A stretch of 39,882 nt of DNA from Candidatus Bipolaricaulota bacterium. Its GTDB lineage: Bacteria; Bipolaricaulota; Bipolaricaulia; UBA7950; UBA9294. Both the position numbers and the translations under genes were made by a program. Below, piece by piece: positions 1,926-2,642 of the stretch. The stretch covers positions 1-39,882 of the forward strand of contig JAYEMK010000029.1 in NCBI GenBank assembly GCA_034718095.1. Direction: 5' to 3'. The stretch's first letter is position 1. Every line of letters begins with the position of its first letter. The notes under the pieces were generated by a model. The model saw only the letters and a list, made by a program, of their open reading frames with translations, was not told where the DNA came from and made no database searches.

Positions 1926-1955
1926 TTGACAAACGGTATGATTTGGGTATATGAT
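1926..1955 (+). promoter_or_regulatory. candidate sigma70-type promoter for the riboswitch/RHH transcript
   Basis: Consensus -35 TTGACA (1926-1931), an 18-nt spacer, then -10 TATGAT (1950-1955). TATATG at 1948-1953 with a 16-nt spacer is an alternative. The region is AT-rich and the -35 lies inside the palindrome TTGTCA-CCT-TGACAA. Confidence 0.4.
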
Positions 1956-1980
1956 GTATTCACTTAGTTAGTTCACCTGA

Positions 1981-2119
1981 AAAAGGTAAACCCACCGCAA
2001 GATGGGGACACAAAGCTACGGGCCAGGTTGGTTGTTAGCAGTTAGTTCTTGGCTGTTAGCTAATAGCTGAAGGCTGAGAGCTAAATGCCAATAGTCAACA
2101 TGGTAGCCGGGTTGCCAGG
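1981..2119 (+). promoter_or_regulatory. candidate c-di-GMP-I (GEMM-I) riboswitch aptamer
   Basis: The conserved blocks appear in the expected order:
- GGUAAACC (1985-1992).
- A hairpin capped by the GNRA loop GCAA (1991-2006).
- GGGGACACAAAGC (2004-2016) and CGGGCC (2019-2024).
- A long hairpin, 2023-2103.
- GGUAGCCGGGUUGCC (2102-2116).

This compares with the V. cholerae Vc2 aptamer as I remember it: GGGCAAACC..GAAA..GGGACGCAAAGCCUCCGGCC....GGUAGCGGGGUUACC. No covariance model was run. Confidence 0.6.
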
Positions 2120-2148
2120 ATTTGGAGATTGTTGGCAGCCCGGTTTTG
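2105..2148 (+). terminator. intrinsic-terminator-like hairpin (riboswitch expression platform)
   Basis: CCGGGTTGCCA (2107-2117) pairs with TGGCAGCCCGG (2133-2143): 11 bp including one G-U pair. The loop is 15 nt and TTTT follows immediately (2144-2147). The 5' arm is the same sequence as the aptamer 3' strand. The hairpin lies 42 nt upstream of the GTG at 2190. Confidence 0.5.
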
Positions 2149-2189
2149 TCTATCGGCGGTAACGGGAAGAAAAGATCGTGAGGTGAACC

Positions 2190-2516
2190 GTGCAGGTGAC
2201 TATTTATTACAATCAGGAAGATCAGTATCTACTGGATCTGGTGGACCAGGAGGCCCGACAGGAGCGAAAGTCCCGCTCGGCGGCAATCCTGACTATCCTT
2301 GAGGAGCACTTCGAGCAACTGAAAAAGATCGGTGAGATCCTCGTGGATCTGGGGGCCGTCTCTCACACAGACCTATCGCGAGGGCTCGACTTACAGAAAA
2401 GCAAGTTCACGGAGAAACTGTTGGGGGACATCCTTCTCGAGGAAGGGATTGTAGGGCAACAGGCGCTGGATCAAGCGTTGATGATACAAAAAAGACAGAC
2501 ACAAACGGATGATTGA
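2190..2516 (+). CDS. small regulator: N-terminal ribbon-helix-helix (CopG/Arc-like) domain fused to an MshEN / T2SSE_N-like putative c-di-GMP-binding domain
   Basis: 108-aa ORF.
- N-terminus: VTIYYNQEDQYLLDLVDQEARQERKSRSAAILTILEEHF fits a beta-strand/helix/helix RHH pattern.
- Residues 46-69 (KIGEILVDLGAVSHTDLSRGLDLQ) and 77-100 (LLGDILLEEGIVGQQALDQALMIQ) fit the 24-residue MshEN motif RLGxx(L/V/I)(L/V/I)xxG(L/V/I)(L/V/I)xxxxLxxxLxxQ.
- Start: GTG at 2190. GTG at 2196 has better spacing to the AGGTGA at 2181-2186. Confidence 0.7.
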   Translation: MQVTIYYNQEDQYLLDLVDQEARQERKSRSAAILTILEEHFEQLKKIGEILVDLGAVSHTDLSRGLDLQKSKFTEKLLGDILLEEGIVGQQALDQALMIQKRQTQTDD

Positions 2517-2576
2517 CCTGGCAGAGTCTATCGCTGTAACTTCTTTTTCCTATAAGACAAAAGCATTTACCGCTCG

Positions 2577-2642
2577 GGGGGTGTAGTATCTCGTTTGGGA
2601 CTTACTACACCCCCGGTAGGAAGTTTTTGCAACAACTTCTTT
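2577..2642 (+). terminator. tandem hairpins downstream of the RHH gene (terminator-like)
   Basis: GGGGGTGTAGTA (2577-2588) pairs with TACTACACCCCC (2603-2614) in a 12-bp perfect stem. GAAGTT (2620-2625) then pairs with AACTTC (2634-2639), followed by TTT. Confidence 0.45.

What the first reader, a model, noticed from the sequence alone, without database searches (positions are those of the whole stretch)
1926..2642. Candidate two-tier c-di-GMP module: a GEMM-I-like riboswitch in the leader of a gene encoding an RHH DNA-binding domain fused to an MshEN-like c-di-GMP receptor domain
Read as one unit, 1926-2642 contains, in order:
- A near-consensus promoter (TTGACA, 18 nt, TATGAT).
- An aptamer-like element at 1981-2119.
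- A hairpin plus TTTT at 2105-2148, whose 5' arm is the aptamer 3' strand.
- An SD and GTG at 2190, opening a 108-aa ORF with an RHH N-terminus and two MshEN-type 24-residue motifs.
- A double terminator hairpin at 2577-2642.

If both assignments hold, the same second messenger acts twice on one small regulator. It would control transcription read-through at the RNA level and ligand binding at the protein level, a feed-forward or AND-like design. I know of no described RHH-MshEN regulator, nor of this riboswitch/receptor pairing.

No GGDEF, EAL, HD-GYP or PilZ gene lies in the window, so the source of the signal and the regulon are unknown.
Basis: partly seen in the sequence, partly recalled or inferred. 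Interest (0 to 1): 0.8.

Follow-up and report, generated by a model that had tools for sequence, protein, structure and literature searches.

The report
Riboswitch-gated c-di-GMP-sensing small regulator
A small gene in an uncultivated Bipolaricaulota bacterium is preceded by an RNA switch for the signalling molecule c-di-GMP and encodes a predicted DNA-binding protein that carries its own c-di-GMP pocket, so one signal probably acts twice on one regulator, a pairing I could not find described.

Summary
Window 1976-2120 is a class I c-di-GMP aptamer (Rfam 62.9 bits, E 1e-12). Rfam's best-scoring model is the 'GGC' variant, but the three pocket nucleotides are the canonical G/A/C in the window and in essentially all 75 related aptamers (the G position is 74/75).

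The aptamer's 3' strand is also the 5' arm of a 14-bp terminator. This predicts that c-di-GMP turns the gene ON.

The 108-aa product has two parts:
- A predicted ribbon-helix-helix N-terminus. The fold match is good, but the Pfam score is below threshold.
- The 55-residue four-helix c-di-GMP-binding subdomain of MshEN. It passes the NCBIfam cutoff, matches PilF and MshE by PDB profile search, and superposes on c-di-GMP-bound structures at 1.2 A rmsd.

The pairing is not a one-off. In 32 of 53 homologous loci, mostly Bipolaricaulota MAGs, the same promoter, aptamer and terminator precede the gene. In 26 loci a second aptamer follows it, ahead of adhesin-like surface proteins.

Every database copy is named 'hypothetical protein', and I found no paper on this architecture or pairing. 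Ligand binding and DNA binding remain untested.

This is a new variant built from known modules. Interest 0.65.

The parts
1891..1925 (+). Candidate operator. Contains GGAACA-t-TGTCACC (1891-1904) and a second TTGTCACC (1918-1925) that abuts the -35. The unit TTGTCACCT(C/T)GA is a direct repeat spaced 21 nt apart.
   Evidence: The direct repeat was found. In a sister clade, a GGGAC(A/G)-N2-(C/T)GTCCCC palindrome occupies the same position next to the -35. Function is inferred only.
1926..1955 (+). Sigma-70-type promoter: TTGACA, 18 nt, TATGAT.
   Evidence: 11 of 12 matches. A promoter at the same fixed distance, with the -10 ending 20 nt before the aptamer, is present in 30 of 33 related loci.
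1976..2120 (+). Class I c-di-GMP (GEMM-I) aptamer with the canonical pocket. In Vc2 numbering, G20 = G1985, A47 = A2012 and C92 = C2115. P1 pairs 1976-1979 with 2116-2119. P1a spans 1986-2011 and carries a GCAA tetraloop.
   Evidence: RF03167, 62.9 bits, E 1e-12. My own covariance model R1 scores it 66.5 bits. Pocket nucleotides were tabulated, and covariation across 47 relatives.
2025..2101 (+). A 77-nt distal extension of P1b, forming a long imperfect hairpin inserted in the aptamer.
   Evidence: It is an insertion relative to the Rfam model and folds as a hairpin. It differs strongly from L081 while its flanks are identical. It is not repeated elsewhere in the held sequence.
2105..2148 (+). 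Intrinsic terminator. The stem pairs 2105-2118 with 2132-2145, followed by UUUUG. Its 5' arm overlaps the aptamer's 3' strand.
   Evidence: The terminator state is -75.0 kcal/mol against -58.4 for the aptamer state, and the two are mutually exclusive. The same design appears in 26 of 36 upstream aptamers by a strict automated test, more by eye, and in 0 of 39 other aptamers.
2180..2192 (+). Shine-Dalgarno sequence GAGGTGA and the GTG start codon at 2190.
   Evidence: Sequence, ORF. The N-terminus aligns with homologues.
2190..2516 (+). CDS of 108 aa: the RHH-MshEN_N protein (NCBI MEA3356024.1, named 'hypothetical protein').
   Evidence: 307 homologues were found. AlphaFold2 mean pLDDT is 88.6.
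2190..2318 (+). Predicted ribbon-helix-helix DNA-binding domain, aa 1-43. It consists of a strand (QVTIYY), helix 9-24 and helix 29-43. An RKSRS motif sits at the N-terminus of helix B.
   Evidence: Secondary structure. Foldseek matches to CopG, Arc, CdbA, VapB and FitA have probability 0.7-0.8 and target TM-score 0.6-0.8. Sequence evidence is weak: Pfam RHH_1 E 0.027, 18 of 108 members with E < 0.1, and hhalign to CopG at 31% probability.
2325..2489 (+). MshEN N-subdomain four-helix bundle, aa 46-100. Motif I is K46-Q69 (2325-2396). A 7-aa spacer follows. Motif II is L77-Q100 (2418-2489).
   Evidence: NCBIfam NF053729 scores 48.5 bits against a cutoff of 38. PDB profile search gives PilF E 3.6e-15 and MshE E 3e-5. 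Foldseek against c-di-GMP-bound PilF GSPII-B and MshE gives rmsd 1.0-1.3 A, 33-38% identity, probability 1.0. G48, Q69, G79 and Q100 are invariant in 108 homologues.
2577..2646 (+). Two 3' hairpins, at 2577-2614 and 2620-2640, followed by UUUG. Probably the transcript end.

Best explanation
A near-consensus promoter starts a transcript whose leader is a class I c-di-GMP riboswitch.

Without ligand, the aptamer's 3' strand (2105-2119) pairs with 2132-2145. This forms a terminator and transcription stops before the gene. When c-di-GMP binds the nascent aptamer, it locks that strand into P1b and P1, and the polymerase reads through. The riboswitch is therefore an ON switch.

The gene encodes a 108-aa protein made of two parts:
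- A ribbon-helix-helix domain, presumed to dimerise and bind DNA.
- The minimal 55-residue four-helix bundle that binds one c-di-GMP in MshE and PilF.

The protein is thus made only when c-di-GMP is high, and then senses c-di-GMP itself. Most likely ligand binding alters operator binding, possibly at its own promoter and at neighbouring surface-protein promoters.

The logic depends on the sign of the protein step:
- If holo-protein is the active form, the circuit is a coherent feed-forward (AND-like) persistence filter.
- If c-di-GMP releases it from DNA, the circuit stockpiles a repressor that shuts genes off quickly when c-di-GMP falls.

Shown computationally: identity of the aptamer, its canonical pocket, the aptamer/terminator overlap, the MshEN_N fold and motifs, and conservation of the pairing. 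Inferred: ligand binding by RNA and protein, DNA binding, the targets, and the sign of regulation.
For: RNA:
- Rfam hit above the gathering score.
- 75 related aptamers carry the canonical pocket: G20 in 74/75, A47 in 75/75, C92 in 75/75.
- Helices are supported by covariation: 93% of cells paired, 17 of 23 pairs with compensatory changes, 0 of 500 shuffles as good, and slid controls at 30-49%.
- Aptamer and terminator are mutually exclusive, and the terminator state is 16.6 kcal/mol more stable without ligand.
- The overlap design recurs upstream of the gene in relatives and never at the other aptamers.
- The core and expression platform are 100% identical to L081, while the P1b tip has diverged.

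Protein:
- NF053729 above its cutoff.
- PDB profile hits to PilF, MshE and PilB.
- The confident model (pLDDT 88.6) superposes on c-di-GMP-bound MshEN and GSPII-B at about 1.2 A, and its N-terminal part matches RHH repressors.
- The key Gly and Gln residues of both motifs are invariant in 108 homologues.
- The isolated four-helix subdomain binds c-di-GMP on its own: MshEN_N 350 nM, PilF159-221 54 nM (PMC11731258).

Pairing and context:
- 32 of 53 homologue loci have the upstream aptamer, and 26 have a second aptamer after the gene.
- Bipolaricaulota genomes encode 1-4 GGDEF proteins (PMC10086821).
Against: - No experiment exists on any member.
- RHH fails Pfam's threshold (14.9 against 20.5 bits). 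A PDB profile search with the N-terminal 46 residues found no RHH protein.
- The monomer model cannot show the dimeric ribbon.
- Pfam T2SSE_N does not match.
- The spacer between motifs is 7 aa rather than 5. PilF GSPII-C, which binds c-di-GMP, aligns without a gap across that spacer (PMC11731258).
- About a third of homologue loci lack a detectable aptamer, so the RNA tier is not obligatory for the family.
- The P1a stem has a C1995/A2002 mismatch.
- The U-tract is short (UUUU).
- No c-di-GMP-making or -degrading gene, and no obvious target such as an adhesin, lies in this window.
Confidence: 0.6

Rival explanations
1. One tier only. The riboswitch is real and the protein is an RHH regulator, but the C-terminal GSPII-like bundle no longer binds c-di-GMP. 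It would serve as an oligomerisation or partner-binding module, like PilF GSPII-A or Xanthomonas XpsE/GspE N-domains.
For: Some GSPII/MshEN-like domains do not bind c-di-GMP (PMC11731258 and PMC5013675). The spacer is 7 aa rather than 5. The central Gly of motif II is not conserved in the family.
Against: Both motifs fit the extended consensus (R/K/L)LGxx..Q. G48, Q69, G79 and Q100 are invariant and the Leu clusters are at least 90% conserved. The protein scores above the curated NF053729 cutoff. The best structural matches are the ligand-bound forms.
Confidence: 0.12
2. The protein binds c-di-GMP but is not a transcription factor. The N-terminal beta-alpha-alpha unit would be a dimerisation or partner-binding module, making the protein an adaptor, an antitoxin-like factor or a c-di-GMP buffer.
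For: RHH is below threshold by sequence. RHH folds also occur in antitoxins, and VapB, FitA and AtaR are among the fold hits.
Against: No toxin-like partner gene is adjacent in the window or in the loci examined. The strand-helix-helix register and the (R/K)SRS motif at the N-terminus of helix B align with CopG. Conserved repeats or palindromes abut the gene's own promoter, as is usual for autoregulating RHH repressors (own knowledge).
Confidence: 0.15
3. The aptamer senses a different ligand, such as 3',3'-cGAMP or an unknown compound, as Rfam's 'GGC variant' label might suggest.
For: The best-scoring Rfam model is RF03167 rather than RF01051.
Against: The position that separates the two Rfam consensus sequences (GCGAAg in RF03167, GCAAAg in RF01051) is A in the window and in 75 of 75 relatives. 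G20 and C92 are also canonical, and cGAMP-type aptamers carry A at position 20 (PMC9481103). RF03167 probably wins because it models the P1 stem and a short P1b loop.
Confidence: 0.05
4. Chance resemblance, or a decaying remnant without function.
For: None beyond the C/A mismatch in P1a and the short U-tract.
Against: E 1e-12 in the window. The promoter, aptamer, terminator and gene are conserved together across dozens of species-level genomes, with compensatory changes in the helices.
Confidence: 0.01

Closest known systems
c-di-GMP-I (GEMM-I) riboswitch, Rfam RF01051, e.g. Vibrio cholerae Vc2
   Same: Two-helix aptamer with a GNRA tetraloop on P1a. Pocket nucleotides are G20/A47/C92. P1 is coupled to an expression platform. 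In relatives, the regulon is adhesin-like surface proteins.
   Different: A 77-nt extension in distal P1b. It scores higher with the sister model RF03167. It controls a gene for a c-di-GMP receptor/regulator rather than an effector protein.
c-di-GMP-I-GGC variant, Rfam RF03167
   Same: Best-scoring covariance model (62.9 bits against a gathering score of 59). Same P1, P1a and P1b layout.
   Different: The model's conserved G in GCGAAg (Vc2 position 47) is A here and in every relative. This is not a GGC-pocket aptamer.
MshEN / GSPII domains of MshE, PilB and Thermus PilF (PDB 5HTL, 8PDK, 6F8L)
   Same: Two 24-residue (R/K/L)LGxxLLxxGLLxxxxLxxxLxxQ motifs form a four-helix bundle. It superposes at about 1.2 A rmsd with 33-38% identity. 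In the window protein motif I starts with Lys and motif II with Leu, as in high-affinity PilF GSPII-B; the family consensus for motif I is Arg.
   Different: Only the N-terminal subdomain is present. There is no C-terminal alpha/beta subdomain and no ATPase. The spacer is 7 aa. The bundle lies at the C-terminus of a DNA-binding-type domain.
CdbA of Myxococcus xanthus (PDB 6SBW/6SBX; PMC7156744)
   Same: A small ribbon-helix-helix protein that is also a c-di-GMP receptor. It is among the fold hits for residues 1-45.
   Different: CdbA has no MshEN motifs. It is a nucleoid-associated protein, and no riboswitch is reported upstream of it.
NfrB of E. coli (glycosyltransferase with a C-terminal MshEN domain; PMC8669469)
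   Same: An MshEN-type module used as a C-terminal regulatory appendage outside secretion ATPases. A weak local NCBIfam match exists to the NfrB C-terminus.
   Different: The output domain is a membrane glycosyltransferase, not an RHH.
Tandem or multi-riboswitch c-di-GMP systems (Bacillus thuringiensis Bc3-5; tandem c-di-GMP-I doublets, PMC9481103)
   Same: Repeated use of c-di-GMP aptamers in one locus to sharpen the response. Relatives carry 2-5 aptamers per locus.
   Different: Here the second sensing step is a protein encoded by the regulated gene. In relatives, the two aptamers flank that gene and use different platforms: a terminator first, then SD sequestration.

Membership tests
c-di-GMP-I riboswitch (clan CL00126) | Covariance-model score at or above a curated gathering threshold | tested here: met
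   RF03167 scores 62.9 bits against a gathering score of 59, E 1e-12. A lower-scoring RF01051 match is hidden by the tool's clan filter, and its score could not be recovered. Relatives score 45-90 bits on RF01051.
c-di-GMP-I riboswitch (clan CL00126) | Ligand-contacting nucleotides G20, A47 and C92 (Vc2 numbering; own knowledge of the Vc2 structures) | tested here: met
   Window G1985, A2012 and C2115. Among 75 related aptamers: G 74/75, A 75/75, C 75/75.
c-di-GMP-I riboswitch (clan CL00126) | P1, P1a and P1b helices supported by covariation, with a GNRA tetraloop on P1a | tested here: met
   93% of cells paired, 17 of 23 pairs with double changes, 0 of 500 shuffles as good. GCAA loop at 1997-2000.
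c-di-GMP-I riboswitch (clan CL00126) | Expression platform coupled to the aptamer | tested here: met
   The terminator's 5' arm is the aptamer's 3' strand.
c-di-GMP-I riboswitch (clan CL00126) | Binds c-di-GMP and changes gene expression | not testable with these tools
   Needs in-line probing and transcription assays.
c-di-GMP-I-GGC variant (RF03167) | G at the position equivalent to Vc2 A47 (model consensus GCGAAg) | tested here: not met
   The window reads ACAAAG. All 75 relatives have A. The meaning of the name 'GGC' is from my memory of Weinberg et al. 2017, which could not be opened.
MshEN c-di-GMP-binding domain | Two tandem 24-residue motifs [(R/K/L)LGxx(LVI)(LVI)xxG(LVI)(LVI)xxxxLxxxLxxQ] (PMC5013675, PMC11731258) | tested here: met
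   K46-Q69 and L77-Q100. The key Gly and Gln residues are invariant in the family. The spacer is 7 aa rather than 5.
MshEN c-di-GMP-binding domain | Curated profile match | tested here: met
   NCBIfam NF053729 'c-di-GMP_motif, MshE-related' scores 48.5 bits against a cutoff of 38. PDB profile search gives PilF E 3.6e-15 and MshE E 3.4e-5.
MshEN c-di-GMP-binding domain | Full T2SSE_N (PF05157) domain with the C-terminal alpha/beta subdomain | tested here: not met
   No PF05157 hit for the window protein or any of 108 homologues. The protein ends 8 residues after motif II.
MshEN c-di-GMP-binding domain | Four-helix-bundle fold of the ligand-binding subdomain | tested here: met
   Foldseek against 8PDK, 8PE0 and 5HTL gives rmsd 1.0-1.3 A over 57-60 residues, probability 1.0.
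MshEN c-di-GMP-binding domain | Binds c-di-GMP | not testable with these tools
   Precedent only: isolated N-subdomains bind at 54-350 nM (PMC11731258).
Ribbon-helix-helix (CopG/Arc/MetJ) DNA-binding proteins | Pfam RHH family match at or above the gathering score | tested here: not met
   RHH_1 scores 14.9 bits against 20.5. 18 of 108 members match at E < 0.1, and none is strong. A PDB profile search of aa 1-46 returned no RHH protein.
Ribbon-helix-helix (CopG/Arc/MetJ) DNA-binding proteins | Beta-alpha-alpha fold | tested here: met
   The model has an N-terminal extended segment followed by helices 9-24 and 29-43. Fold hits include CopG (1EA4, target TM-score 0.80), Arc, CdbA, VapB, FitA and AmrZ. 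hhalign to CopG is in register but only 31% probability.
Ribbon-helix-helix (CopG/Arc/MetJ) DNA-binding proteins | Dimerises through the ribbon and binds operator DNA | not testable with these tools
   The structure tool folds single chains only.

The most novel reading that the evidence does not exclude
The 108-aa protein is the first MshEN-type transcription factor. It would be a c-di-GMP-switched ribbon-helix-helix repressor or activator that binds the GGGACA-N2-TGTCCC-like sites at its own promoter. Together with the riboswitches that flank its gene, it would form the master c-di-GMP circuit controlling adhesin and surface-protein operons across the uncultivated phylum Bipolaricaulota. One messenger would be read by RNA to decide whether the factor is made, and by the factor itself to decide what it does.
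Probability: 0.4. Interest if true: 0.75.

Novelty: new variant of a known kind. Interest (0 to 1): 0.65.

Why it matters
MshEN is regarded as the second most widespread c-di-GMP receptor module after PilZ. It is known as a regulator of secretion and pilus ATPases and of glycosyltransferases, not of transcription. A minimal MshEN bundle fused to a DNA-binding fold would add a new class of c-di-GMP-responsive transcription factor of only 108 aa, which is easy to express and crystallise.

I did not find a described case of a c-di-GMP riboswitch controlling a c-di-GMP-binding regulator. Such a circuit offers a compact natural example of RNA-plus-protein feed-forward sensing of a single messenger.

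It also gives a first handle on c-di-GMP signalling in Bipolaricaulota (Acetothermia/OP1), a deep-branching phylum without cultured model organisms. In this phylum, riboswitch-dense loci appear to govern surface adhesins.

Tried and rejected
- Weinberg et al. 2017, the source of the GGC variant, could not be opened by PMC id or DOI. Papers that mention c-di-GMP-I-GGC only list it. Its ligand status therefore rests on my memory and on the Rfam consensus lines.
- I tried to expose the hidden RF01051 score by trimming P1 from the query. RF03167 still won at 48.9 bits.
- A PDB profile search with the N-terminal 46 residues found no RHH protein.
- I tested whether the P1b insertion is a repeated or mobile element. 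There was no other copy in the window or in 83 loci.
- I looked for aptamers next to more distant MshEN-like hits in other phyla (L054-L080). None was found.
- The simple terminator scan did not flag the riboswitch terminator, because its loop exceeds the scanner's limit. Folding was used instead.
- RNAalifold's own consensus mispaired G20/G21/C22 with the 3' end. I replaced it with the canonical structure for counting and modelling.
- The miRNA and snoRNA hits in the permissive Rfam scan are generic hairpin matches to the P1b extension and were dismissed.
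Full report
**What is there**

The window is an entire 39,882-nt contig of a Candidatus Bipolaricaulota MAG. The protein in question is NCBI MEA3356024.1, named 'hypothetical protein'. 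The surrounding genes are housekeeping, and a motif scan found no GG[DE]EF protein. They include what look from ORF order and N-terminal sequences like dcw-cluster cell-division and cell-wall genes, though these were not profile-scanned.

- A TTGACA-18-TATGAT promoter, 11 of 12 matches.
- An Rfam-significant aptamer at 1976-2120.
- A 14-bp hairpin, 2105-2118 paired with 2132-2145, followed by UUUUG.
- GAGGTGA and a GTG start at 2190.
- A 108-aa ORF ending at 2516.
- Two hairpins at 2577-2614 and 2620-2640.

**The RNA**

cmscan gives RF03167 (c-di-GMP-I-GGC) at 62.9 bits against a gathering score of 59, E 1.1e-12, over the full model. About 77 nt are inserted in the distal P1b loop. A same-clan match, presumably RF01051, is suppressed by the tool. 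I could not expose its score even after trimming P1.

The label 'GGC' is misleading here. The RF03167 consensus reads GACGCGAAgCc, whereas the RF01051 consensus reads GACGCAAAgCc. By my knowledge of the Vc2 structures, that position corresponds to A47, which stacks between the two guanines of the ligand. The window reads GACACAAAGCU, so it has A.

I built a covariance model from 47 related aptamers and aligned 75 confident matches from the window and 53 homologous loci. The three pocket positions are G (74/75), A (75/75) and C (75/75). These are canonical c-di-GMP-I aptamers. RF03167 probably outscores RF01051 because it models the P1 stem and has a shorter P1b loop.

The helices are real. With the canonical structure:
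- 93% of cells pair.
- 17 of 23 pairs show compensatory double changes.
- None of 500 shuffles reaches the observed values.
- Sliding the partner columns drops pairing to 30-49%.

**The switch**

Nucleotides 2105-2119 belong both to the aptamer (P1b 3' strand, G91, C92, P1 3' strand) and to the terminator's 5' arm. Constrained folding of 1976-2150 gives -58.4 kcal/mol for the aptamer state and -75.0 kcal/mol for the terminator state, which is also the unconstrained minimum. The default is therefore termination. Ligand capture of the nascent aptamer should prevent it, making this an ON switch.

This design is conserved. By a strict automated test, 26 of 36 aptamers upstream of the homologous gene have a helix of at least 8 bp that uses the last 20 aptamer nucleotides and is followed by a T-run. 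Inspection shows that about six of the ten 'failures' also have it. None of the 39 aptamers at other positions does.

The promoter is also conserved. In 30 of 33 loci, a TTGACA-N17-TATAGT-like promoter ends exactly 20 nt before the aptamer.

**The protein**

There are 307 homologues at E <= 1e-3. The best 120 listed are nearly all 100-135 aa and 59-74% identical to the window protein (one is 98%). Where they carry a taxon name it is Bipolaricaulota, and they are annotated as hypothetical. The start is confirmed by the shared MQ(T/V)TIYY N-terminus.

Evidence for the C-terminal c-di-GMP-binding part:
- NCBIfam NF053729 ('cyclic di-GMP-binding domain-containing protein, MshE-related', a 53-position model) scores 48.5 bits against a cutoff of 38.
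- A family profile finds Thermus PilF (E 3.6e-15, best on GSPII-C), V. cholerae MshE N-domain (5HTL) and PilB ATPases in the PDB.
- The AlphaFold2 model is confident (pLDDT 88.6).
- Residues about 45-103 superpose on c-di-GMP-bound PilF GSPII-B and MshE at 1.0-1.3 A with 33-38% identity.

Motif I is K46-I-G...L62...L66..Q69. Motif II is L77-L-G...L93...L97..Q100. Both fit the extended consensus (R/K/L)LGxx(LVI)(LVI)xxG(LVI)(LVI)xxxxLxxxLxxQ (PMC5013675; PMC11731258). G48, Q69, G79 and Q100 are invariant in 108 homologues.

Only the N-terminal four-helix subdomain is present. Consistent with this, Pfam T2SSE_N does not match. That subdomain binds c-di-GMP by itself in MshE (350 nM) and in PilF159-221 (54 nM) (PMC11731258).

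The N-terminal 43 residues are predicted as an extended segment plus two helices. They match CopG (target TM-score 0.80), Arc, CdbA and several RHH antitoxins by fold. Sequence evidence is weak:
- Pfam RHH_1 scores 14.9 bits, below its 20.5 cutoff.
- 18 of 108 members match at E < 0.1.
- The PDB profile search found nothing.
- hhalign to CopG is in register but only 31% probability.

I therefore treat RHH as likely, not proven.

**Conservation of the pairing**

A scan of one genome per GTDB species returned 53 loci with full-length homologues. Most record titles name Bipolaricaulota or Acetothermia. Many others carry automatic labels such as 'uncultured Thermotogae', and a few name other phyla.

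- Rfam at gathering thresholds finds an aptamer 42-72 nt upstream of the gene in most cases. Overall, 32 of 53 loci have one within 250 nt, and three loci have tandem pairs.
- In 26 loci, a second aptamer begins 16-260 nt after the stop codon. In most of them the gap is 16-100 nt, too close for a separate promoter.
- This second aptamer has a different platform. The aptamer's 3' end pairs with the GGAGG of the next gene, as in L011 and L008.
- The genes behind these aptamers are large secreted proteins with Ig-like, PKD, DUF11, cadherin-like or lamin-tail domains, an S8 subtilase, and small secreted proteins. This is a typical GEMM-I regulon.
- The window and its near-twin L081 lack the second aptamer and the adhesin. 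An S9 peptidase follows instead.
- Roughly a third of homologue loci have no detectable aptamer.
- More distant MshEN-like hits in other phyla have none.

**How it probably works**

c-di-GMP is read twice. Bipolaricaulota genomes encode 1-4 GGDEF proteins (PMC10086821), so the signal can be made.

First, the leader RNA licenses transcription of the regulator. Second, the regulator's own four-helix bundle binds the messenger. RHH proteins commonly autoregulate through repeats at their promoters (own knowledge). Two observations fit that:
- In the window, TTGTCACCT(C/T)GA is repeated 21 nt apart, and the second copy abuts the -35.
- In a sister clade, a GGGAC(A/G)-N2-(C/T)GTCCCC palindrome sits at the identical position in at least ten loci.

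Whether holo- or apo-protein binds DNA is unknown. This decides whether the circuit is a coherent AND-like persistence filter or an incoherent loop. In the incoherent case, the cell stockpiles a repressor for rapid shut-off. CdbA shows mutually exclusive DNA and c-di-GMP binding (PMC7156744 and PMC10313047).

**Comparison and novelty**

Each module is known:
- GEMM-I riboswitches.
- The MshEN motif.
- RHH repressors.
- An RHH c-di-GMP receptor, CdbA, which uses a different binding mode.

Three things are not described in anything I could search or in database names:
- An MshEN bundle fused to a DNA-binding fold.
- A c-di-GMP riboswitch controlling a c-di-GMP receptor/regulator.
- The operon layout of aptamer, regulator, aptamer, adhesin.

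A profile search of 1.84 billion cluster representatives shows roughly 50 full-length (about 100-150 aa) clusters among the best 150 hits. Multi-repeat MshEN proteins make up the rest. The family is therefore sizeable but compact.

I rate it a new variant of a known kind, interest 0.65. The main uncertainty is biochemical: no ligand-binding or DNA-binding data exist.

Noticed in passing
window 2021-2101 versus L081 (about 2300-2400): The window and a JGI contig whose protein is 98% identical are 100% identical through the promoter, aptamer core, terminator and leader. The distal P1b hairpin is only about 50% identical and has a 14-nt indel. This is a hypervariable tip inside an otherwise frozen riboswitch. 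L082's three aptamers carry similar GTTAGC/GCTAA-rich extensions.
   Followed up: partly
L014, L028, L029, L031, L032, L034, L035, L037, L038, L049 (starting 61-63 nt before the aptamer); also L039:3832, L025:2865, L051:2845, L037:6459; window 14026: A palindrome GGGAC(A/G)-N2-(C/T)GTCCCC abuts the -35 of the regulator's promoter in a sister clade. It also occurs next to another riboswitch promoter (L037:6459). In the window it appears as GGGGACAGTTGTCC in an intergenic region of the apparent cell-division gene cluster. It is a candidate operator, possibly for the RHH protein.
   Followed up: partly
L001-L037, about 16-260 nt after the homologous gene (e.g. L011:4344-4418, L008:4349-4423): A second c-di-GMP-I aptamer lies directly after the regulator gene. 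Its platform sequesters the SD rather than forming a terminator. It precedes large Ig-like, PKD, DUF11 or cadherin-like secreted proteins. Some loci hold 3-5 aptamers within 8 kb (L009, L016, L028, L029, L032, L035, L037, L050).
   Followed up: partly
33 loci, 49 to 21 nt before the aptamer start: The promoter is unusually well conserved and close to consensus, at a fixed distance from the aptamer. A shared CACTTAG(T)TCA leader motif lies between the -10 and P1 in several loci.
   Followed up: partly
window 1852-1875: A 24-nt near-perfect palindrome, CCTGTAACCCAT/ATAGGTTACAGG, lies about 50 nt upstream of the -35. It is identical in L081 and absent from L082.
   Followed up: no
window 1796-1825: A GC-rich hairpin, AAAGGGGGTT...AACACCCTTTTT, is flanked by A and T runs. 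It looks like a bidirectional terminator separating the upstream HAD-hydrolase region from the riboswitch promoter.
   Followed up: no
L019, L053, L020 (second copies in genomes MTNI01, CAZMNF01 and CBDUVB01): Some genomes carry two paralogues of the regulator. In two of the three pairs, one copy lacks any detectable aptamer (L019, L053).
   Followed up: no
window 6244-6327: tRNA-Leu(CAA) with a long variable arm, between the M32 carboxypeptidase-like ORF and an ORF that looks like ftsZ.
   Followed up: yes
A2 members: 24 of 108 family members give weak Pfam hits to DUF4388, with a best E of 0.006. This hints at a distant relation between that domain and the MshEN-type helical motif.
   Followed up: no
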